64,000 nucleotides of DNA, taken from Thermoanaerobaculia bacterium. GTDB lineage: Bacteria; Acidobacteriota; Thermoanaerobaculia; Multivoradales; JAHEKO01. Below the pieces are notes generated by a model. The model ran no database searches. It had not been told where the DNA came from and saw nothing but the letters and a program-made list of their open reading frames with translations. Shown here in pieces: positions 30,833 through 40,219 of the stretch; the stretch's first letter is position 1; each line of letters begins with the position of its first letter. Location: positions 171,968 to 235,967 of the forward strand of contig CAMYNM010000003.1 of the NCBI GenBank assembly GCA_947259725.1, read 5' to 3'. Made by a program: the position numbers and the translations under genes.

Positions 30833-33800
30833 CTACACCCCGAAGTACTTCGCGTCCGGGTGATGCACCACAAGCGCCGAAACGCTCGCCTCAGGGTCCA
30901 TCATGTCGCCCTCGGTCAGCTCGACCCCGATCGACTCGGGCTTGAGCGCCGCAAACAGCTGCTGCTGGCCCGAAAGATCCGGGCAGGCCGGGTAGCCGAA
31001 GCTGTACCGGCAGCCCCGGTAGCGGTTCGAGAGGCGGTCGCGAGGGGTGAACTCGGGCGGGTCCGGGAATCCCCAGGCGGCGCGCAGGCGCAGGTGCACG
31101 AACTCGGCCGCCGCCTCCGCGGTTTCGATGGCGAGCGCGGCGAAGGCGTGGCTCTTCAGGTATTCGCCGTCGTTCTTCCAGGCTTCCACCCGATCGCGAA
31201 CTCCCTCTCCCGCGGTGGTGACGAACAGCGCCAGGTGGTCGCCGCCGAGGACGTAGTCGGCCAGGCACAGACCGTCGACGCCGGCCTGGCGGGGAAACTC
31301 CCACTCCACAACCGGACGATCGCCGTCGGGCTCATACAGGCGAATCGTGTTGCCCTCGCTCTCGGCGCGAAAAAACTGCCACACGGCTCGCGCGGTCATG
31401 GCGCCGCCCAGAGCCAGGTCTTGGAGCTCGGCGACGATCTTCTCGAGCTTGGCGAGCTTCTCGTCGCCCTGTGCGGCGAGCCGCTTGACCGAGCCCTGGA
31501 GCCCCAGATGCTTGCCATACAGCATCTGCAGGTTGAGCTCGTTCCAAACCTCGTCGAGGTCGAGCTCGGCCGTGTGCAGATCGACGTCCGAAGGAACCGG
31601 CACCACGATGTCGGCTCGAACCGAAGAGCTACGCACGGTCGACGTCGTGTCACCCACCGCCTTCGGTTTGACGTTCGCACGCGCCGCCAGATCCTCGGCG
31701 GTGAGGGTTGCGACCTCGGTCGCAAGACCGGATCGTCGTTCCGCGTCGGTCAGTCGCTCGACCAGGTCGAGACCATGCATCGCGTCCTTGGCATAGGTGC
31801 AGAGACCGCCGTACTCCGGGGCGATCCGGAGGTGGGTGAAGCGGCGGGTGAGAGCGGCGCCTCCCACGAGGAGGTCGGTATCGATGCCCACGTCCCGCAG
31901 ATCCCCGGCAGTCAGCACCATCTGCTGGGCGCTCTTGACCAGCAGACCCGAAAGTCCGATCACGTCCGGTTTGTGCTCCTGAACCGCCTGGATCAGCTGC
32001 TCGCTGGGTACCCGAATCCCCAGGTTCACGATCTCGAAACCGTTGTTGGAGAGCACGATGTCGACCAGGTTCTTGCCGATGTCGTGGACGTCGCCTTTCA
32101 CGGTGGCCAGGATTACCTTGCCTCGGGACGAGCGGTCGCTCTTTTCCATGTGAGGCTCGAGCCGCGCGACGGCGGCCTTCATGACCTCGGCGCTTTGGAG
32201 CACCTCGGCCACGATCAGCTCGTTGGCGTTGAACAGGCGCCCGACCTCCGCCATGCCACCCATCAACGGACCGTTGACGATGTCGAGCGGCGTCGGCCAG
32301 CGCTCATCGGACAGCGCCTCGTCGATGTCTTCCTCGAGACCTTCCTTCGAGCCTTCGATCACCGCGCGCGACAGACGCTCATCGAGGGGTAGATCCGTCC
32401 GCGGCACCGAGACGATCGCCGACTTGCGGCCCCGGAAGTGGGCGGCAAAGTCGGCCACCGCCTGGTCGGCGGCGGCCACGTCGCCGGGCTCGAGGTAGAT
32501 CAGGGCGTCGGCGAGACGCCGTTCCTCCTCGACGATCTCGGCATAGCGCGCGAGCCGCTGGGTATTGACGATTGCGGCGTCGAGGCCCGCCTGGGTCGCG
32601 TGGTAGAGAAACACCGAGTTGAGGACCTCGCGACCGGTCACCGGCAGCCCGAAGCTCACGTTCGAAACACCCAGGATCGTCTTAGTGAGCGGAAACTCGG
32701 CCTTGATCGCGCGCACACCCTCGATGGTGAGATTGGCCGAGCCAATATAGGTCTCGTCGCCGGTGCCGCAGGGGAAGACCAGGGGGTCCCACCATATGTC
32801 CTCGGGCGCGACTCCGTACTCCTCGGTCAAGAGATCATAGCTTCGCCGGGCGACTTCGAGCTTGCGCTCGACGGTCACCGCCATTCCGCTTTCGTCGATC
32901 GTCCCGACGATCAGGGCGGCTCCGAACCGCCGGGCGAGCGGCACGACCTCTTCGAACCGCTTGCGGCCATCCTCGAGGTTGATCGAGTTGAGCACGGCCT
33001 TGCCCTGGCAGTACTCGAGTGACCGCTTCATCACCGCGGCATCGGTCGAGTCGATCATCAGCGGGACCTTGACCAGGCGGACGACGTGCTCGAGAAGAGC
33101 CTCCATGTCGGCGACCTCGTCCCGATCCGGGTCCTGCATGCAGATATCGATCACCTGCGCCGCGGCCTTGACCTGTGCCCGCCCGACTTCCGCCGCCGCT
33201 TCGTACTCACCGTCCTTGATCAACCTCTTGAACTTGCGACTACCGAGAACATTGGTCCGCTCGCCGACGAACAGCGGCCGGTTGTCGGCGGTCAGCTCGA
33301 CCCCCTCGATTCCGGACACCAAACTGCGCTGATGCCGAGCCGGAACCTGAGGTCGCTTGCCGGCGACGAGCTTCGCCAGCGCGGTGACGTGCGCGGGGGA
33401 GGTCCCGCAGCACCCACCGACCAGGTTGAGCCACTTGTGATCGATGAACCGCCCGATGACTTCGACAAAATGATCGGGCCCCTGATGGTAGAGGCCATCC
33501 TCGTCGGGAAGCCCGGCGTTGGGAACGCACGCCACCCGGCTGCGCGACAGCTCCGAGAGCGTACGCAGGTGCTCGGTCATGAGCTCGGGGCCGGTGGCGC
33601 AGTTCAGGCCGATGTAGAGAAGGTCGCGATGCAAAAGGGAGACTGCCAGCGCTTCGGCGTCCTGCCCGGCGAGCATGGTACCGGTGGTTTCGATCGTGAC
33701 CGAGACCGCCACCGGAATCGACCAGCCCGCCTGGTCGAAGGCCCGGTCGATGCCCAGGAGGCCCGCCTTGATGTTGCGAGTGTCCTGGCAGGTCTCGAGC

Positions 33801-34324
33801 AGCAGGTAGTCGGCGCCACCAGCCATGAGCCCCGCGGCCTGGACGTAGAAATGCTCGATCAGTCCCTCGAAGGTGACGCCGCCGGTGACCGAGATCGCGG
33901 TTGTCGTCGGCCCCATCGAACCGCACACGAAGCGCAGCCTTCCTGGTTTGTCGAATCGAGTACAGGCGGTGCGCGCTTGCTCGGCCGACAGCCGGTTGAG
34001 CTCGAACGCCTGGTCCGCGAGCCCGTATTCCGCGAGCACCAGGGGAGTGCCGCCGAACGAGTTGGTCTCGACGACATCCGCGCCGGCCTGGAGGTAGGTC
34101 TCGTGCAGTCGCTCTACGACATCGGGTCGGGTCGCGCACAGATTCTCGTTGCAGCCCTCGAGATCCGGACCGCCGAAATCCTCCGCGGTGAGGTTCTCGC
34201 TCTGCAGAGCGGTCCCGGTGGCGCCGTCGAGCACCAGAATGCGCTCATCCAGTGCGTCGATCAAAGCCGCCGTGCGGGCCTCTCGGTCGCCGGGAGCCGG
34301 AATCACAAAGTCATGTGTGCTCAT
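30833..34324 (-). CDS. metH: Cobalamin-dependent methionine synthase
   Basis: Homocysteine-binding, pterin-binding, B12-binding and AdoMet-activation domains are all recognisable across the 1163-aa product. Confidence 0.95.
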   Translation of the reverse strand: MSTHDFVIPAPGDREARTAALIDALDERILVLDGATGTALQSENLTAEDFGGPDLEGCNENLCATRPDVVERLHETYLQAGADVVETNSFGGTPLVLAEYGLADQAFELNRLSAEQARTACTRFDKPGRLRFVCGSMGPTTTAISVTGGVTFEGLIEHFYVQAAGLMAGGADYLLLETCQDTRNIKAGLLGIDRAFDQAGWSIPVAVSVTIETTGTMLAGQDAEALAVSLLHRDLLYIGLNCATGPELMTEHLRTLSELSRSRVACVPNAGLPDEDGLYHQGPDHFVEVIGRFIDHKWLNLVGGCCGTSPAHVTALAKLVAGKRPQVPARHQRSLVSGIEGVELTADNRPLFVGERTNVLGSRKFKRLIKDGEYEAAAEVGRAQVKAAAQVIDICMQDPDRDEVADMEALLEHVVRLVKVPLMIDSTDAAVMKRSLEYCQGKAVLNSINLEDGRKRFEEVVPLARRFGAALIVGTIDESGMAVTVERKLEVARRSYDLLTEEYGVAPEDIWWDPLVFPCGTGDETYIGSANLTIEGVRAIKAEFPLTKTILGVSNVSFGLPVTGREVLNSVFLYHATQAGLDAAIVNTQRLARYAEIVEEERRLADALIYLEPGDVAAADQAVADFAAHFRGRKSAIVSVPRTDLPLDERLSRAVIEGSKEGLEEDIDEALSDERWPTPLDIVNGPLMGGMAEVGRLFNANELIVAEVLQSAEVMKAAVARLEPHMEKSDRSSRGKVILATVKGDVHDIGKNLVDIVLSNNGFEIVNLGIRVPSEQLIQAVQEHKPDVIGLSGLLVKSAQQMVLTAGDLRDVGIDTDLLVGGAALTRRFTHLRIAPEYGGLCTYAKDAMHGLDLVERLTDAERRSGLATEVATLTAEDLAARANVKPKAVGDTTSTVRSSSVRADIVVPVPSDVDLHTAELDLDEVWNELNLQMLYGKHLGLQGSVKRLAAQGDEKLAKLEKIVAELQDLALGGAMTARAVWQFFRAESEGNTIRLYEPDGDRPVVEWEFPRQAGVDGLCLADYVLGGDHLALFVTTAGEGVRDRVEAWKNDGEYLKSHAFAALAIETAEAAAEFVHLRLRAAWGFPDPPEFTPRDRLSNRYRGCRYSFGYPACPDLSGQQQLFAALKPESIGVELTEGDMMDPEASVSALVVHHPDAKYFGV

Positions 34325-34350: not shown

Positions 34351-34386
34351 CAAACCAAACAATCCGCTTCGTGCATCACGAAGCGG
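34351..34386 (-). terminator. Rho-independent terminator (expression platform of the candidate riboswitch)
   Basis: Perfect 10-bp stem with a 3-nt loop (CCGCUUCGUG-AUG-CACGAAGCGG) followed by AUUGUUUGGUUUG, about 30 nt upstream of the metH ATG. Confidence 0.55.
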
Positions 34387-34535
34387 ATCGTTGGACCGCC
34401 GGACAATTCGTTGCCGCCTTCCGGCGACCGCATCCCCGCTCTGTTCTTTCGTCTCGAGCGAGATGGCACCTTGGGTGTCCGTCCCAGGTTGCCGCGTCCG
34501 GTCTCGCAACCGAACCACTCCTGATGCGCGGTCAG
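34351..34535 (-). ncRNA. Candidate SAM-I (S-box) riboswitch with intrinsic terminator in the metF-metH spacer
   Basis: Read on the minus strand there is a P1 helix CGCAUC/GAUGCG, AUCAGGAGUGG (close to the consensus AUCAAGAGAGG), a P3 hairpin GUUCGG...CCGGAC followed by GGCAACC, then GGUGCCA and GAAAG. A terminator hairpin and U-tract follow the aptamer. No covariance-model search was run. Confidence 0.5.
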
Positions 34536-34572
34536 CCTAGCCCAGCGCGGAAACAGGTGTCAATAGCCAGCT

Positions 34573-35529
34573 CTAGACGTCGAGCCTGTCGAGCAGCATC
34601 GAGACCGCCTTCGAGCTCTGCATGACGTAGAAGTGGACCGAAGGCACACCTCGATCGAGCAGATCCTCGGTCTGGCGTCGCGCCCAATCGACCCCCACCT
34701 CGAGCACTTCCTCGCTGGACCGCGCGGAATCAACGGCATCCGCCAGGAGCGGCGGAATCTCGCAGTGAAAGAAGCTCGGCAGGCTCTTCGTGTGCTTGCG
34801 CGTCGTCAAGATCTTCAAGCCCGGAATGATCGGGACCGTGATGCCGGCTTCCCGGCACTTTTCCACATAACGGAAGTAATGATCATTGTTGAAGAACATC
34901 TGGGTAACGATGTACTCGCCGCCGGCTTCCACCTTGGCCTTGGCGTGGCGCACGTCGGTCTCGAGATTGGGCGCCTCAAAGTGCTTCTCCGGATAGCCGG
35001 CGACTCCGATGCAGAAGTTCGACGGCTCCGCGTCCAGAAGGATCTCGCCCTCCAGATACTTACCGCCATTCATGTCGGAGATCTGGCCGACCAGATCGAT
35101 CGCATAGGAGTTGACGCTTCGCCCTGGCGGGAGCGGCTTTTTGAATCCGATGTCATCGCCTTTGATCGCCAAGACATTGTCGATCCCGAGGTACTTGAGC
35201 TCGATCAGGAAGTCCTCGGTCTCTTCGCGGGTAAATCCTTCGCAGAGAACGTGTGGAACCGCGTCACATTCGTACTTGTTCTGGATCAGGGCGCACAGGC
35301 CGAGTGTTCCCGGGCGCTTGCGCTTGATCACCCGGCGAATGCCGTCCTTGGTCTCGTGGTAGATGACCTGCGCCGAATGGCTGGTGATGTCGATGAACGG
35401 CGGCTTGTACCTCGCCAGATCTTCGGTCAGCCTGAGCAGCTTCTGCAGATTGCCACCCCGCAGCGGCGGGATGATCTCGAAGCTGATTAGCGGATCCTTG
35501 GCCCGTTCCAGATGTTCGATGACCTTCAT
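34573..35529 (-). CDS. metF: 5,10-methylenetetrahydrofolate reductase
   Basis: MKVIEHLERAKDPLISFEIIPP... is the MetF TIM-barrel family. Confidence 0.9.
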   Translation of the reverse strand: MKVIEHLERAKDPLISFEIIPPLRGGNLQKLLRLTEDLARYKPPFIDITSHSAQVIYHETKDGIRRVIKRKRPGTLGLCALIQNKYECDAVPHVLCEGFTREETEDFLIELKYLGIDNVLAIKGDDIGFKKPLPPGRSVNSYAIDLVGQISDMNGGKYLEGEILLDAEPSNFCIGVAGYPEKHFEAPNLETDVRHAKAKVEAGGEYIVTQMFFNNDHYFRYVEKCREAGITVPIIPGLKILTTRKHTKSLPSFFHCEIPPLLADAVDSARSSEEVLEVGVDWARRQTEDLLDRGVPSVHFYVMQSSKAVSMLLDRLDV

Positions 35530-35550: not shown

Positions 35551-35922
35551 TCACCGCTGCTCGTCGGCGCGACCCTTGACCCAGCGATCCCGAAACACCC
35601 ACCCGATACCGAGACATCCCATCGCGATGTCGGGAAACTCGAAGGTCCGATTCGGAATCCAGATTTGGGCAACCTCGAGAATCACGCAGAAGGTCGCCAA
35701 AATGACAATGACCGAGCTGCTGTCGCGCGTACCCGAACGACGAACCAGCCAGGCGAGCACCAGAAACAGCACGAAGTGCACGCACAGCGCCAGCACCTGC
35801 TCGAAACGCTCCCAGCCCGGGGCGGCAGCCTGGAACGCCGAACCGGGCAGAAGCAACAGCACCGCCGTGAAGGCCGCCCACACCAGTGCCGCCAGCCGAG
35901 CGATGACCGCGAGTTCTGGCAT
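35551..35922 (-). CDS. VanZ-like family membrane protein
   Basis: 123-aa protein with several TM segments and the VanZ C-terminal pattern EVAQIWIPNRTFEFPDIAMGCLGIG. Confidence 0.6.
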   Translation of the reverse strand: MPELAVIARLAALVWAAFTAVLLLLPGSAFQAAAPGWERFEQVLALCVHFVLFLVLAWLVRRSGTRDSSSVIVILATFCVILEVAQIWIPNRTFEFPDIAMGCLGIGWVFRDRWVKGRADEQR

Positions 35923-35961: not shown

Positions 35962-37548
35962 ATGCCCAGGTTCACTCGTGCCCAGATCGTATTGCTTGCC
36001 GCCGCGGTGGTGCTCGGCCTCGGCCTTGCGACCAGCTACTGGGCCCTGCGCAAGTCGACCGCAAATCTGATCGGACGACTCGACGAGTTCGGCACCAGCG
36101 GCCGCAACCCGGGTGCGGTTCACGACGTTGCGCGGGAAACGAATCGCTCGACTGCCGGCCTGATGGCCGCCCGCGCCCTGCTGGCCGAAGAGCTCGACCG
36201 CCGCTGGCTAAGGGAGCTCGACCCCGAAGAGCTCGGCCGCGCCGTGGGCCAGGGCGAGGCGAAGCTCGAACTGGCGAGAGACCTGGCGCTCGAGGCGCTG
36301 CGCGAGCAACCGAGCTCCTGGCAAGCACTGATGATCCTCGGCGGAGCACGCTATCTGCTCGCCAGCCGCCGCAACGTCCCCGGCCGCTGGAGCGATCGCG
36401 ACTCGTGGGCGTTACCCCTGAGCACGGCGATCGCACGAGCTCCCGCCCAGCCGGAGCCCAAACGCGTTCTGGCTGCCGCCTATTTGAGCGAGTGGTCGAT
36501 CGCCAGCGACGCCGAGCGCCAAGCGCTACTTCCATTCCTGCAGGAGGCATTTCGCGATCTGAACACTCTCGAGCAGCTGCTGCCGGCTTGGCTCAACCGC
36601 GCCGGCTCGTTCGAACAGGCCCTCTCGGTGATCTCCCCCGACCCCCGAGCCTGGCGACAGCTCGACCACTACTACCGCCAGCGCGAGGACTGGCAGCGGC
36701 TTGCGGAGGTTCTCGACCGCCTCGACCGGTCACTGCCGGAGTACTTGCACTCCCGCCTCGAGCTTGCACACAAGATGCTCGATGGCGGCGAGGCCGAGTC
36801 GGCGCGCCGGGTGGTGCTCACGACAATCGACGAGATCCCGATGCGCGCCGAGTACGCCGATCATCTCGCAAAAGCGATCAACCAGCTGCCGCCGGGACCG
36901 ATCTCGGCCCGCAGAGCCGAGCGGCTCGGAGAGTGGATCGAGTGGTCGGCGGAGCGCTGCCTTCTTGCCGATTGCCCGTTCTCGGTCGAGGTATTCGAGC
37001 GGCTCACCCGCCTGGCTCGTTCGGATGAGCCCGGCCGCCAGGCCCTCGGCGCTCTACTACGGGGAGATCTCGCGGCCGGCGTCTCGATCGAGCAACGAAA
37101 CTCGGCGCGCGTCAAGACGCCGGCCTGGATGACCTACGACCTCCTCAAGGCCAAGGTGCTGGCAAACCTCGGCCAGACGCGGGAAGCGGGGCGTCTCTTC
37201 CAAGAGGCCGGCACACATCCCGGAGGAGGGGTGCTCGCCCGCCACCTGGCTCAACAGCTCGGCAGCGAACAGAACGGGGGTATCGGCACCGTCGATTCGG
37301 GCTGGCGGGGGTGGAAGCGTGGCTACCGCCGGGAGCTTCTCGCCGAAACCGCCGGTAGCTTCGAGATTCGCTTTCCCGAGGTCGCCGGCGGTGGCGCCGT
37401 CGTCGAGGTCAGGGTCAATCAATCCCTGGAGGGTTTTCACCCTATCGAAGCCGGCACGGCCGTGCGGATCGATCTCGGGCCCGGCTACGTGCGGGTGGAT
37501 CTCCTGCGCGAGGCGGGCTCCACCTTCCGGCCAGCGGAAGCGATGTGA
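35962..37548 (+). CDS. Hypothetical membrane-anchored protein (528 aa), function unknown
   Basis: N-terminal TM anchor followed by a large Ala/Leu/Arg-rich helical domain. No motif recognised. Its 3' end overlaps the convergent ligase gene. Confidence 0.5.
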   Translation: MPRFTRAQIVLLAAAVVLGLGLATSYWALRKSTANLIGRLDEFGTSGRNPGAVHDVARETNRSTAGLMAARALLAEELDRRWLRELDPEELGRAVGQGEAKLELARDLALEALREQPSSWQALMILGGARYLLASRRNVPGRWSDRDSWALPLSTAIARAPAQPEPKRVLAAAYLSEWSIASDAERQALLPFLQEAFRDLNTLEQLLPAWLNRAGSFEQALSVISPDPRAWRQLDHYYRQREDWQRLAEVLDRLDRSLPEYLHSRLELAHKMLDGGEAESARRVVLTTIDEIPMRAEYADHLAKAINQLPPGPISARRAERLGEWIEWSAERCLLADCPFSVEVFERLTRLARSDEPGRQALGALLRGDLAAGVSIEQRNSARVKTPAWMTYDLLKAKVLANLGQTREAGRLFQEAGTHPGGGVLARHLAQQLGSEQNGGIGTVDSGWRGWKRGYRRELLAETAGSFEIRFPEVAGGGAVVEVRVNQSLEGFHPIEAGTAVRIDLGPGYVRVDLLREAGSTFRPAEAM

Positions 37549-38939
37549 GCCGCGCCGCCAGTGGCCCGAGGAGCGACGGCCAGTGCGGCGCCGACGACAA
37601 CAGCTACCAACAAGCCGTTCGCGGGAAGCGTCAGACCAAAGTCCAGGAACTCGTGGATACCGACGGAGGCCAGCGCACCCAAGGCGCCCAGCACAAACAA
37701 GCGATCTTCGTTTCGCTCGGCTGCCGCGAACTTGCCGATCAGCGATCTCAACGTCCAGACCGAGCCGAGTACGAGAATCGCCAGGCCGGCAAGACCGCCG
37801 GTGATCCACAGCTCGAGGTAGTCGTTGTGCGCCTTCGCCCAAGTGATCGCGACGCTCGAGTCGCGCCCCACAAGTGCATGCGCCTCTCGAAAGCCACCGA
37901 TCCCGGTGCCCAGCCAGGGGAACCGGGCGATCAGCGGTAGCGACTCCCGCCAGACGCCGATTCGACCGCTGGTAGCGATGTCGTACCAGGAGGTACCCAG
38001 GAGCCTGGAGAACAACTGGCTCGCTCCTACCCAGCTCACGAAGCCAGCTATCGCTGTCACAGGAATCAGCGCCGCCACGAGCGTTCGGCGCAGGCCGCGG
38101 CTGCGGATCAGCAGCCCTCCCTGGGCGACGAGCCCGCCGAGCGTCGCGAGAGCCGCCGCCCTCGAGCCGGTGAGCGCGTTCCCGACCAGCAAGGCGAGAA
38201 GCGCCAGGCTCAGGGCGGCGACCCATAACCAGCGAGCCTCGCTCACCTTCGACCATCGGCGACTGACCAGCGCCCAGACCAGGGCAGCGAAGCACATGGC
38301 CGTGCCGACCTCCAGAAGCAGCGCCAGGTGATCGGAATTGATGTAGGAACCCCGCAACCTCGGCACTCGCCCTGCCACCAGCGGACCGGCCCCCAGAACC
38401 ACCTGAGTCAGACCGGCGATCAGCGCCGCTCCAAAGAGCCAGCGTCGGCGCGACCGCCGGCGAAAGACGACGCCCGCGGCCGCGATCGCGGCTGCGAGGC
38501 TCGCCAGCTCGAAGCCCACCCACCGTGAGGTCGATGCGGCGAGCGACAGCGGGATGCGAGTCGCGCCGACCGCACCGGTCACCTCGGCGGTTTCGCGAGC
38601 CAGCTCCAACCGCTCGGGGGACAAGACGGCGACAAGCCGAGAGGGCAGCCCGACCGACTGAAGCCAGGCAAGAACCGCCAAGGCCAAGACCGCCAGCACC
38701 GTGCCCCAAGTGCGCTCCCACACCGACGTCGGCCGGCGCGAACCGGCGGCGATCGAGAAGGCCAGGAGCGCGAACCCGTAGCCGGCCAAGGACGCGCCCG
38801 GCGTCGCCCCACCGTGAAAGACGGGCAAAGTAGCCACCGTCGCGCACAAGACACCCGCTGCGAGGTCTCGAGAAGACGGTATGATCTGCCGCGGCCCGAG
38901 CACCTGCGCAGGATACCGAGAGACCAGAACCGCCGACAA
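37485..38939 (-). CDS. O-antigen ligase (WaaL/Wzy_C) family membrane protein
   Basis: At least 10 TM segments and a WAKAHNDYLELWITGG Wzy_C motif. The true start is probably an internal GTG/TTG, because the ATG at 38939 leaves only 5 nt to the divergent gene. Confidence 0.75.
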   Translation of the reverse strand: MSAVLVSRYPAQVLGPRQIIPSSRDLAAGVLCATVATLPVFHGGATPGASLAGYGFALLAFSIAAGSRRPTSVWERTWGTVLAVLALAVLAWLQSVGLPSRLVAVLSPERLELARETAEVTGAVGATRIPLSLAASTSRWVGFELASLAAAIAAAGVVFRRRSRRRWLFGAALIAGLTQVVLGAGPLVAGRVPRLRGSYINSDHLALLLEVGTAMCFAALVWALVSRRWSKVSEARWLWVAALSLALLALLVGNALTGSRAAALATLGGLVAQGGLLIRSRGLRRTLVAALIPVTAIAGFVSWVGASQLFSRLLGTSWYDIATSGRIGVWRESLPLIARFPWLGTGIGGFREAHALVGRDSSVAITWAKAHNDYLELWITGGLAGLAILVLGSVWTLRSLIGKFAAAERNEDRLFVLGALGALASVGIHEFLDFGLTLPANGLLVAVVVGAALAVAPRATGGAAHIASAGRKVEPASRRRSTRT

Positions 38940-38944
38940 ACTCG

Positions 38945-40219
38945 ATGCCTCGACCCGTTCTCGTATTGCTCCTGCTGGTCGCAGGAGCGCCGCTTCCCAG
39001 CCTCGCGCAGTTCGATCAATACACCGCTCCCGGCAGCCTGGCCAGCGCGCAGACCAAAACGAGGGCCGACCAGGCGCGAGAGAGCTCCGAGAGCGCGCGC
39101 TGGCACCTCGGCCGTCTGGCGCTCGAGCCGAGCGTGGTAGTGCGCGATGTCGGCTACTTTCGCAATGCGCTGGCCACCCCCGATGAAAACAGCCAGGTCG
39201 ATGACTATCGGGCCACCCTCGCAGCCGGCCTGTCGGCCTTTCAGAAGCTCGGATCGAAGTCGCTGTTCTCGGCGTACGTGGCGCCCGAGTACTCGTGGTG
39301 GCGGGATCAGAGCGAGCTCAGCAGCTTGAACCTCAACTGGGGCGCCGGATGGTTCGGCTACTTCAATCGGTTGACGATCGGCGCGAACGTCGGCCGGACG
39401 AAGCGCGAGCGCCCGCTCAGCGACGAGCTCGAGGCGCCCTTGACGATCGAGCAAGACCGCCGCGAGGTCAGCGCCGAGTTGGTCTTAACCGACGCGATAA
39501 CAGTTTTCGGCGAGACGACCGAGACCGAGACGCGCCATACGACGGAGGTGCAACGTCTGATTCCCGGCCTGATGAGCCAGACCCTCGACCGAGATTCCGA
39601 TACGACGAGAATCGGCGCGGTGCTCGAGGTTCGGCGGTGGCGGATTGGCGCAGGAGTCGAAAGCACCGACATCCGGCTCCTCATCGACCCGGACGGCAGG
39701 TCGAATTCCGGGGACAGTCCCTTCGCGCTGGTCCGCTACGACAGTGAGAGCCTCGACCTCGATCTGAGCTGGGTTGACCGGGAGCTCGAGTTCGACAACC
39801 CTTTGCTCGGCCGTGAGTCGCTCACCGACGGCTACGCTCGCGTCGCGCTTGACCTCAGCGAGGGCGCTCGCATCAGCGTGTATGGGGCGCGTACGCTGGG
39901 CCTTTCGGTCCTGGCCACGAACAGCTATCTGGTCAATACCCGAGGGGGGGCCTCCCTGGGGCTGGACGTGGGTCGCCGAGCTCGGCTCACCGTCTTCGCC
40001 GAGCAGGGAGAAGCGGACTTTCGAGGTCCGAGCTTGGATCCCAGAACCGACGATCTCGACGCCCTGGGTGCCCAGCTCGACTGGCGGCTGACCGGCGATC
40101 TCGAGCTCGGACTTTACTTTCGAGATTCGACCTGGGATTCCAGCCTCGACGACTTCGACCGGTCTCAGAGCTCCTTCGGCGTCAATCTCGAGATCGGGAC
40201 CGACCTGTTCCCTTGGTAA
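38945..40219 (+). CDS. Putative outer-membrane beta-barrel protein (first gene of the polysaccharide export operon)
   Basis: Clear signal peptide MPRPVLVLLLLVAGAPLPSLAQ, alternating amphipathic beta-strand pattern, and a C-terminal aromatic residue (FPW). Confidence 0.55.
   Translation: MPRPVLVLLLLVAGAPLPSLAQFDQYTAPGSLASAQTKTRADQARESSESARWHLGRLALEPSVVVRDVGYFRNALATPDENSQVDDYRATLAAGLSAFQKLGSKSLFSAYVAPEYSWWRDQSELSSLNLNWGAGWFGYFNRLTIGANVGRTKRERPLSDELEAPLTIEQDRREVSAELVLTDAITVFGETTETETRHTTEVQRLIPGLMSQTLDRDSDTTRIGAVLEVRRWRIGAGVESTDIRLLIDPDGRSNSGDSPFALVRYDSESLDLDLSWVDRELEFDNPLLGRESLTDGYARVALDLSEGARISVYGARTLGLSVLATNSYLVNTRGGASLGLDVGRRARLTVFAEQGEADFRGPSLDPRTDDLDALGAQLDWRLTGDLELGLYFRDSTWDSSLDDFDRSQSSFGVNLEIGTDLFPW

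What the first reader, a model, noticed from the sequence alone, without database searches (positions are those of the whole stretch)
34351..34572. Candidate SAM-I riboswitch with its own terminator sits between metF and metH
The 248-nt metF-metH spacer folds, on the minus strand, into an aptamer with a P1 helix CGCAUC/GAUGCG, AUCAGGAGUGG, a P3 hairpin followed by GGCAACC, then GGUGCCA and GAAAG. A near-perfect intrinsic terminator (10-bp stem plus U-tract) follows about 30 nt before the metH ATG. SAM-sensing attenuators normally sit at the 5' end of an operon. Here it is internal, so it could uncouple metH from the upstream vanZ-like/metF transcript.
Basis: partly seen in the sequence, partly recalled or inferred. 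Interest (0 to 1): 0.55.

Follow-up and report, generated by a model that had tools for sequence, protein, structure and literature searches.

The report
SAM-I/IV riboswitch controlling metH
The metF-metH spacer holds a real S-adenosylmethionine riboswitch with its own promoter and terminator, but it belongs to the already crystallised SAM-I/IV class rather than SAM-I, so it is an ordinary new member of a known family.

Summary
On the minus strand, the 248-nt metF-metH spacer encodes a SAM-clan aptamer followed by a 12-bp terminator.

It is SAM-I/IV (RF01725), not SAM-I:
- P2 is unbroken (no K-turn), and there is no P2-loop pseudoknot.
- A hairpin follows P1, and the P3 loop pairs with the 3' tail (PK-2).
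- The P3 segment is identical over 28 nt to the crystallised SAM-I/IV RNA (PDB 4L81), which also has the in-junction P4.

The window copy scores 38.3 bits against a gathering score of 41.1. Eleven orthologous copies score 43-52 bits. Across 64 copies from Thermoanaerobaculia (Acidobacteriota), 94.8% of cells pair and 20 pairs show compensatory changes.

The "internal attenuator" reading is only partly right. All 69 copies have a -10 box 6-8 nt before P1, and 64 have a 5-6/6 TTGACA -35 box, whatever gene lies upstream. So the riboswitch heads the metH transcript. In some relatives it sits before metF-metH instead.

One extra point: the antiterminator appears to pair the terminator's 5' arm with the aptamer's 5' side (P1 5' strand, J1/2, start of P2), not with the P1 3' strand.

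Verdict: new member of a known kind, low interest.

The parts
34558..34563 (-). -35 box TTGACA of the riboswitch/metH promoter, 9 nt after the metF stop codon
   Evidence: a TTGACA-like hexamer 17-18 nt upstream of the -10 box, 6/6 in 39 and 5/6 in 25 of 69 copies. for coordinates. Function inferred from conservation.
34534..34539 (-). -10 box TAGGCT; the transcript is predicted to start about 34529..34527, at the base of P1
   Evidence: TAnnnT lies 6-8 nt upstream of the P1 G in 69/69 copies. The simple consensus scan did not call it because it matches TATAAT at only 3 of 6 positions.
34400..34528 (-). Complete SAM-I/IV aptamer, from the P1 5' strand to the PK-2 3' strand
   Evidence: RF01725 38.3 bits, E = 8e-5; 121.7 bits with the clade model R1, and it is the only copy in the window; aligns with the PDB 4L81 RNA.
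34523..34528 (-). P1 5' strand CGCAUC; pairs with 34429..34434
   Evidence: C-G, A-U and U-A are invariant in 63 distinct sequences and the closing pairs change on one side only (93.4% of cells paired).
34518..34522 (-). J1/2 AGGA plus G14. GAG is invariant and G14 pairs with C38 (34494). This is part of the ligand-pocket strand of the SAM clan and the proposed toehold for the antiterminator.
   Evidence: invariant G12, A13, G14; G14-C38 is invariant; the two variable positions covary with the terminator's 5' arm.
34496..34515 (-). P2: 7-bp uninterrupted hairpin GUUCGGU/ACCGGAC with loop UGCGAG; no K-turn or internal loop
   Evidence: 6 of 8 pairs show compensatory changes, 94% of cells paired.
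34465..34493 (-). P3 with the asymmetric internal loop of the SAM clan (GGC-AA-CCUGGG ... CCC-A-AGG-U-GCC); loop ACGGACA
   Evidence: nearly invariant; 28 nt identical to the crystallised SAM-I/IV RNA (sequence from PMC5393176).
34435..34462 (-). P4: in-junction hairpin CUCGCUC/GAGCGGG with a 14-nt loop. Its 3' strand abuts P1.
   Evidence: all 7 pairs show compensatory changes. Length varies between relatives. Rfam's model treats it as an insertion.
34429..34434 (-). P1 3' strand GAUGCG
34413..34428 (-). Hairpin 3' of P1 (P5 in SAM-IV numbering), GUCGCC-GGAA-GGCGGC
   Evidence: 3 pairs with compensatory changes, 88% of cells paired.
34400..34412 (-). Conserved tail AACGAAU, then the PK-2 3' strand UGUCCG (34405..34400), which pairs with the P3 loop CGGACA (34481..34476)
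   Evidence: 98.1% of cells paired, 3 pairs with compensatory changes (e.g. GGACA/UGUCC to AGACA/UGUCU in 6 loci).
34352..34388 (-). Intrinsic terminator: 12-bp stem (34388..34377 with 34373..34362), loop AUG, U-tract UUGUUUGGUUU (34362..34352)
   Evidence: -18.8 kcal/mol; a hairpin plus U-tract at this position in 63/69 copies. The consensus scan missed it.
34373..34386 (-). Switching segment CCGCUUCGUGAUGC (terminator 5' arm, loop and the first base of the 3' arm), which can pair instead with GCAUCAGGAGUGG (34527..34515) to form the antiterminator
   Evidence: 13 bp with one bulge, -17.4 kcal/mol; complementarity is conserved and covaries across 63 copies.
30833..34324 (-). metH, cobalamin-dependent methionine synthase (1163 aa); the regulated gene
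   Evidence: Pfam S-methyl_trans, Pterin_bind, B12-binding_2, B12-binding, Met_synt_B12.
34573..35529 (-). metF, methylenetetrahydrofolate reductase (318 aa); the upstream neighbour, not preceded by a riboswitch in this window
   Evidence: Pfam MTHFR 195 bits; no other SAM riboswitch in the 64 kb.

Best explanation
This is a SAM-I/IV riboswitch that switches off transcription of metH, the last enzyme of methionine synthesis, when S-adenosylmethionine (SAM) is plentiful.

1. A sigma-70-type promoter (TTGACA, 18 nt, TAGGCT) just after the metF stop codon starts the transcript at the base of P1. This is inferred from conservation.
2. The RNA folds into a four-helix junction (P1 to P4), a hairpin after P1, and a pseudoknot between the P3 loop and the 3' tail. 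This is shown by covariation and by near-identity to the crystallised SAM-I/IV RNA.
3. SAM is expected to bind between P1/J1-2 and P3, as in that structure. This is inferred by homology; every core nucleotide is invariant.
4. With SAM bound, P1 and J1/2 are locked. The downstream segment CCGCUUCGUG then pairs with CACGAAGCGG to form a 12-bp terminator with a U-tract, and transcription stops before metH.
5. Without SAM, that same segment uses the unpaired J1/2 bases as a toehold, displaces the P1 3' strand, and pairs with GCAUCAGGAGUGG (P1 5' strand, J1/2, start of P2). This antiterminator leaves the terminator's 3' arm without a partner, so metH is transcribed. Steps 4 and 5 are inferred, with comparative support.
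6. Transcripts reading through from metF would meet the same switch. This is inference only.
For: Family and fold:
- RF01725 is the best Rfam match (38.3 bits, E = 8e-5).
- Eleven orthologous copies pass its gathering score at 43-52 bits.
- In a MAFFT alignment of 64 copies, 94.8% of cells pair against 45% or less when partners are slid. Twenty pairs have compensatory changes, spread over P2, P4, P5 and PK-2.
- 28 nt of P3 are identical to PDB 4L81, which has the same P4, hairpin after P1 and tail.

Promoter: 69/69 copies have TAnnnT 6-8 nt before P1, and 64/69 have a 5-6/6 TTGACA at 17-18 nt spacing, regardless of the upstream gene.

Terminator: a hairpin plus U-tract in 63/69 copies.

Antiterminator:
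- 51/63 copies have at least 9 of 10 ungapped pairs between GCAUYNNGAG and the top of the terminator's 5' arm. The two J1/2 positions that are unpaired in the aptamer covary with it. No permutation of 2000 reached the observed value.
- 90.3% of cells pair against 31-52% when slid.
- The aptamer's 5' side is the best partner for the terminator's 5' arm (z = -3.4). The P1 3' region gives z = -0.5 and the tail z = -0.1.
- Transcripts truncated before the terminator's 3' arm fold into this antiterminator in 61/63 copies. Full-length transcripts form the terminator in 58/63.

Gene logic: the regulated gene is a complete MetH.
Against: - The window copy is 2.8 bits below Rfam's gathering score, and nothing in the window passes that threshold.
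- The U-tract is interrupted by G (UUGUUUGGUUU), and the simple terminator scan did not call it.
- The -10 box matches TATAAT at only 3 of 6 positions and was not called by the promoter scan.
- There is no experimental evidence for ligand binding, transcript start or termination. All relatives are metagenome-assembled genomes.
- Covariation in the antiterminator rests on three positions. The sequences are phylogenetically related, so the shuffle tests overstate significance.
- Without ligand, the full-length minimum-energy fold is still the terminator. The antiterminator must therefore act kinetically.
Confidence: 0.9

Rival explanations
1. It is a canonical SAM-I (S-box) riboswitch.
For: It has a four-helix junction with a P4 hairpin and the shared SAM-clan core AUCAGGAG ... 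GGCAACC ... GGUGCC. One related genome (L060) does carry a true SAM-I at this position, scoring 80.4 bits.
Against: RF00162 is outranked by RF01725 both on the whole element and on the junction alone, so it scores below 29.8 bits against a gathering score of 44.4. P2 is an uninterrupted helix with no K-turn. J3/4 is only 2-3 nt, so the SAM-I pseudoknot between the P2 loop and J3/4 cannot form. The hairpin after P1 and PK-2, which SAM-I lacks, are present and covary.
Confidence: 0.03
2. It is a SAM-I/IV riboswitch, but the antiterminator is the classical one: the P1 3' strand and neighbouring bases, or the PK-2 3' strand, pair with the terminator's 5' arm.
For: This is the usual wiring of S-box and L-box leaders, with helix 1 acting as the anti-antiterminator (PMC3384330; otherwise my own knowledge). 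From my own recollection of the abstract of Trausch et al. 2014 (paper not held), PK-2 is described there as part of the regulatory switch in SAM-I/IV. GCGG in the P1 3' strand/P5 region can pair with CCGC of the terminator arm (reading of the sequence).
Against: Duplex energies of the terminator's 5' arm with the P1 3' region (mean -14.8, z = -0.5) or with the tail and linker (mean -11.6, z = -0.1) are no better than with shuffled arms. The aptamer's 5' side gives -21.4, z = -3.4. The conserved GUGAUGC at the top of the terminator copies the P1 3' strand rather than complementing it.
Confidence: 0.15
3. The spacer holds only an ordinary terminator for metF plus chance G+C-rich hairpins, with no ligand-sensing RNA.
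For: No Rfam family reaches its gathering score in the window. The isolated aptamer folds only modestly better than shuffles (z = -1.9).
Against: The same element sits in front of metH in about 60 related genomes, including about 40 with no metF upstream. Compensatory changes occur in four helices and a pseudoknot. The core is identical to a crystallised SAM-binding RNA.
Confidence: 0.01
4. Regulation is mainly translational or Rho-dependent rather than by intrinsic termination.
For: Many marine SAM-I/IV members place a GGAG-like sequence in or next to the PK-2 3' strand (seed alignment). Six of 69 copies here lack a clear U-tract, and the window's own U-tract is interrupted.
Against: Here the PK-2 3' strand lies about 75 nt upstream of the start codon and does not overlap a ribosome-binding site. 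A strong hairpin plus U-tract is conserved in 63/69 copies.
Confidence: 0.07

Closest known systems
SAM-I/IV riboswitch (Rfam RF01725; crystallised env87 aptamer, PDB 4L81)
   Same: - Unbroken P2 and no P2-loop pseudoknot.
- P3 with the same 28-nt sequence.
- An in-junction P4 that abuts P1.
- A hairpin 3' of P1, an AACGAA-type tail, and a pseudoknot between the P3 loop and the tail.
- The original seed alignment already contains acidobacterial and soil members with the P4 hairpin.
   Different: - P4 is longer here (7 bp plus a 14-nt loop). The Rfam model has no P4 pairs, so the window copy falls 2.8 bits short of the gathering score.
- The expression platform is an intrinsic terminator.
- The antiterminator appears to use the 5' half of the aptamer.
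SAM-I (S-box) riboswitch, RF00162
   Same: - Same ligand-binding core and four-helix junction.
- Same type of regulon. From my own knowledge, the SAM-I RNA first crystallised came from a metF-metH2 leader of Thermoanaerobacter tengcongensis.
- A transcriptional OFF switch with a terminator.
- A related genome (L060) uses SAM-I at this very position.
   Different: SAM-I has a K-turn in P2 and a pseudoknot between the P2 loop and J3/4. It has no hairpin after P1 and no PK-2 (PMC6890682). None of the SAM-I peripheral features is present here.
SAM-IV riboswitch, RF00634
   Same: PK-2 between the P3 loop and the 3' tail, the hairpin after P1, and the same core.
   Different: SAM-IV lacks P4. Its P2 is split by an internal loop, and it has a P2-loop pseudoknot. 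Here P4 is present and covaries, and P2 is continuous.

Membership tests
SAM-I/IV riboswitch (RF01725) | SAM-clan core: invariant A-U and U-A pairs in P1, xGAG in J1/2, and P3 GCAACC...GGUGC with its asymmetric internal loop | tested here: met
   Invariant columns in 64 copies. 28 nt of P3 are identical to PDB 4L81.
SAM-I/IV riboswitch (RF01725) | P2 without an internal loop or K-turn (Weinberg 2010 supplement; PMC6890682) | tested here: met
   A continuous 7-8 bp helix; 6 of 8 pairs show compensatory changes.
SAM-I/IV riboswitch (RF01725) | No pseudoknot between the P2 loop and the junction 3' of P3 | tested here: met
   J3/4 is only 2-3 nt and the P2 loop is not conserved.
SAM-I/IV riboswitch (RF01725) | A hairpin 3' of P1, followed by a tail that pairs with the P3 loop (PK-2) | tested here: met
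   Hairpin: 88% of cells paired, 3 pairs with compensatory changes. PK-2: 98.1% paired, 3 pairs with compensatory changes.
SAM-I/IV riboswitch (RF01725) | Score at or above Rfam's gathering score (41.1 bits). This is an operational cut-off, not a structural feature. | tested here: inconclusive
   The window copy scores 38.3 bits. Eleven orthologous copies at the same position score 43.2-51.7 bits. The model has no P4 pairs, so the 28-nt P4 is scored as an insertion.
SAM-I/IV riboswitch (RF01725) | Binds S-adenosylmethionine | not testable with these tools
   Inferred from core identity to a SAM-bound crystal structure and from the methionine-synthesis gene downstream.
SAM-I riboswitch (RF00162) | K-turn in P2 and a pseudoknot between the P2 loop and J3/4 | tested here: not met
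   P2 is continuous and J3/4 is 2-3 nt.
SAM-I riboswitch (RF00162) | Rfam gathering score of 44.4 bits | tested here: not met
   It is outranked by RF01725 at 38.3 and 29.8 bits in two searches, so it scores below 29.8 bits.
SAM-I riboswitch (RF00162) | P4 hairpin inside the junction | tested here: met
   All 7 pairs show compensatory changes. SAM-I/IV members, including PDB 4L81, share this feature.
SAM-IV riboswitch (RF00634) | No P4; P2 split by an internal loop; P2-loop pseudoknot PK-1 (PMC6890682) | tested here: not met
   P4 is present and P2 is continuous, and PK-1 is not possible.
Intrinsic (Rho-independent) terminator | A G+C-rich hairpin immediately followed by a U-tract | tested here: met
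   12-bp stem, -18.8 kcal/mol, then UUGUUUGGUUU. Conserved in 63/69 copies. The consensus scan missed it.
Sigma-70-type promoter | -35 and -10 hexamers at 16-18 nt spacing, placed upstream of the RNA | tested here: inconclusive
   -35 is 6/6, the spacer is 18 nt, and -10 TAGGCT is 3/6. The scan did not call it, but the layout is conserved in 69/69 copies. The transcript start was not mapped.

The most novel reading that the evidence does not exclude
In this clade of SAM-I/IV riboswitches the expression platform may be wired the 'other way round'. The terminator's 5' arm carries a copy of the P1 3' strand. When SAM is absent, it invades the aptamer from the unpaired, ligend-contacting J1/2 bases and pairs with the P1 5' strand, J1/2 and the start of P2. 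In the classical wiring the P1 3' strand is the shared element. In addition, the whole promoter-riboswitch-terminator cassette has moved between 'before metF-metH' and 'between metF and metH' in closely related genomes. I did not find this wiring described in the papers I could read, but I could not read the main SAM-I/IV structure paper (Trausch et al. 2014).
Probability: 0.3. Interest if true: 0.4.

Novelty: new member of a known kind. Interest (0 to 1): 0.2.

Why it matters
Mostly as annotation. It shows that metH in this Thermoanaerobaculia genome is feedback-controlled by SAM while metF is not.

It also exposes a blind spot in the Rfam SAM-I/IV model. The model has no P4 pairs, so members with a long P4 fall just under the gathering threshold (window copy, L003, L026).

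The comparative set of 69 copies, with promoter, aptamer, terminator and a covarying antiterminator, is a clean natural data set for anyone studying how SAM-clan expression platforms are wired. It does not change what is known about riboswitch classes.

Tried and rejected
- **SAM-I membership:** rejected (no K-turn or PK-1).
- **SAM-IV membership:** rejected, because P4 is present and P2 is continuous.
- **Four-way junction plus PK-2 as a new hybrid architecture:** I considered this briefly. I rejected it after finding the same P4 hairpin in the 2010 seed alignment and in the crystallised RNA.
- **Classical antiterminator using the P1 3' strand or the PK-2 tail:** no better than shuffled controls.
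- **Alternative helix CGCCGGA/UCCGGCG** seen in the window's minimum-energy fold: by eye I saw no matching complementarity in L014, and I did not check it systematically.
- **A second riboswitch in front of vanZ-like/metF in the window:** none found by Rfam or by the clade model.
- **Exact-protein look-up of MetF** to find the source contig: nothing on record.
- **The simple promoter/terminator scan:** missed both elements.
- **Trausch et al. 2014 (PMC4020084):** could not be read.
- **The metagenome scan:** not used, because the genome loci gave enough.

Full report
**What is in the sequence**

On the minus strand the window encodes a weak VanZ-like ORF (35922..35551), metF (35529..34573) and a full five-domain metH (34324..30833). 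They are separated by a 248-nt spacer. The whole leader folds better than shuffled versions (z = -3.9). The predicted fold has a four-helix junction, an extra hairpin after P1, and the terminator.

**Which family**

At gathering thresholds Rfam finds nothing in the 64 kb. A permissive search of the spacer gives SAM-I/IV (RF01725) at 38.3 bits against a gathering score of 41.1, E = 8e-5. SAM-I does not win even when only the junction is offered; RF01725 still leads at 29.8 bits. The Rfam alignment shows why the score is low. The model has no base pairs between P3 and the P1 3' strand, so the 28-nt hairpin there is scored as an insertion.

The published definitions fit SAM-I/IV:
- SAM-I has a K-turn, a P2-loop pseudoknot (PK-1) and P4.
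- SAM-IV lacks P4 and has PK-1, PK-2 and a hairpin after P1.
- SAM-I/IV has an unsplit P2, no PK-1, a P4 and PK-2 (PMC6890682; Weinberg 2010 supplement).

The 2010 seed alignment already includes members with this optional hairpin, among them an acidobacterial genome and soil reads. The crystallised SAM-I/IV RNA (PDB 4L81; sequence in PMC5393176) shares 28 identical nucleotides of P3 with the window. It also has the same in-junction P4 abutting P1, the same hairpin after P1, and the same AACGAAG-UCCG tail.

**Comparative test**

Using the MetH N-terminus I fetched 80 loci. Nearly all are labelled Acidobacteriota, mostly class Thermoanaerobaculia, and their MetH is 67-89% identical to the window's. 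Sixty-three carry the same element upstream of metH.

On a MAFFT alignment of 64 copies with the structure written explicitly, 94.8% of cells form pairs, against 36-45% when partners are slid. Twenty of 42 pairs show compensatory changes:
- P2: 6 pairs.
- P4: all 7 pairs.
- The hairpin after P1: 3 pairs.
- PK-2: 3 pairs, for example GGACA/UGUCC changing to AGACA/UGUCU.

P1 and P3 are almost invariant. Eleven orthologous copies pass Rfam's gathering score for RF01725 at 43-52 bits. A covariance model built from the alignment finds exactly one copy in the window (121.7 bits).

**Is it internal to an operon?**

A tblastn search with MetF shows three arrangements:
- metF-riboswitch-metH, as in the window, in about 19 loci.
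- Riboswitch-metH with no metF within about 2 kb, in about 40 loci.
- Riboswitch-metF-metH with metF abutting metH, in 5 loci (L004, L006, L008, L011, L040).

In all 69 copies a TAnnnT box lies 6-8 nt before the P1 G. A TTGACA-like box lies 17-18 nt further upstream, perfect in 39 copies and 5/6 in 25. In the window these are TTGACA at 34563..34558 and TAGGCT at 34539..34534, and the metF stop codon is only 9 nt upstream of the -35 box. So the riboswitch heads its own transcript.

The reason, though, is a separate promoter plus riboswitch, not an attenuator buried in a polycistronic RNA. No terminator separates metF from the promoter, so metF read-through would also be subject to the switch. 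That last point is inference.

**Expression platform**

A strong hairpin plus U-tract follows the aptamer in 63 of 69 copies. The top of the terminator's 5' arm and its loop, CGUGAUGC, is conserved, which is unusual for a terminator. It is a copy of the P1 3' strand, and so it is complementary to the P1 5' strand plus J1/2.
- Without gaps, GCAUYNNGAG pairs with this segment at 10 of 10 positions in 32 copies and at 9 of 10 in 19 more, out of 63.
- The two J1/2 positions that are unpaired in the aptamer covary with it (A-U, G-C and C-G at one; C-G and G-C at the other). No permutation of 2000 reached the observed complementarity.
- On a MAFFT alignment of the concatenated segments, 90.3% of cells pair against 31-52% when slid, with 17 double-sided changes against 5.4 +/- 1.9 in shuffles.
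- Compared with shuffled arms, the aptamer's 5' side is a far better partner for the terminator's 5' arm (mean -21.4 kcal/mol, z = -3.4) than the P1 3' region (z = -0.5) or the PK-2 tail and linker (z = -0.1).
- Transcripts cut just before the terminator's 3' arm fold with the 5' arm on the aptamer's 5' side in 61 of 63 copies. Full-length transcripts form the terminator in 58 of 63.
- In the window the antiterminator is GCAUCAGGAGUGG (34527..34515) with CCGCUUCGUGAUGC (34386..34373): 13 bp with one bulge, -17.4 kcal/mol, against -18.8 for the terminator stem.

**Mechanism**

With SAM bound, P1 and J1/2 are locked, the terminator forms, and metH is not transcribed. Without SAM, the terminator's 5' arm uses J1/2 as a toehold, displaces the P1 3' strand, and forms the antiterminator, so metH is transcribed.
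- Shown here: the aptamer fold and the family assignment.
- Supported by conservation: the promoter, the terminator and the antiterminator.
- Inferred: SAM binding and the switching itself.

**Limits**

Nothing here is experimental, and all relatives are metagenome-assembled genomes. The related sequences are not independent, so the shuffle-based counts overstate significance. The slid controls are the fairer comparison. I could not read the SAM-I/IV structure paper, so I cannot say whether this antiterminator wiring has already been described.

**Verdict**

This is a genuine SAM riboswitch of the known, structurally solved SAM-I/IV class, sitting at the start of the metH transcript: a new member of a known kind. 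Interest is low (0.2). The expression-platform wiring and the movement of the cassette around metF are the only mildly unusual points.

Noticed in passing
L060:2222-2337: One related genome (labelled Candidatus Multivoraceae) carries a canonical SAM-I riboswitch (RF00162, 80.4 bits) upstream of metH, where the others carry SAM-I/IV. One SAM-clan class has replaced another at the same locus.
   Followed up: partly
L004:1332-1476, L006:1095-1218, L008:1351-1480, L011:1336-1481, L040:1329-1458: In five relatives metF abuts metH, and the same promoter-riboswitch-terminator cassette sits upstream of metF instead. The cassette has moved relative to metF within the clade.
   Followed up: partly
L044, L057, L072 (metF ends within about 120 nt of the metH match): Three loci with adjacent metF-metH show no significant SAM-I/IV hit with the clade model in the roughly 1.4 kb held upstream of metF. 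L044 and L057 also have no Rfam hit at gathering thresholds. How these genes are regulated there is unknown.
   Followed up: no
window 34435-34462; L003:2298-2423; L026:2285-2406: The Rfam RF01725 model has no P4 base pairs. The window copy, L003 and L026 fall below the gathering score although they score 120 bits or more (window, L003) with the clade model or align well (L026). This looks like a systematic false-negative class for Rfam annotation.
   Followed up: partly
L003 (JAZDDE010000325.1): This contig is labelled Gemmatimonadota. Its MetH is 87% identical and its riboswitch nearly identical to those of the Thermoanaerobaculia loci. The cause could be a binning or labelling error, or a recent transfer.
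   Followed up: no
It ends 21 nt before metF.
   Followed up: no
window 35962-37548 (+), 37057-38847 (-), 38945-40219 (+): Three long ORFs next to the locus have no Pfam match. Two of them overlap on opposite strands, so at least one is probably not a gene (high-G+C artefact).
   Followed up: no
L005, L021, L033, L046, L058, L065 (downstream of the aptamer): Six copies have the hairpin but only a weak or interrupted U-tract. They may terminate poorly or use another mode of control.
   Followed up: no
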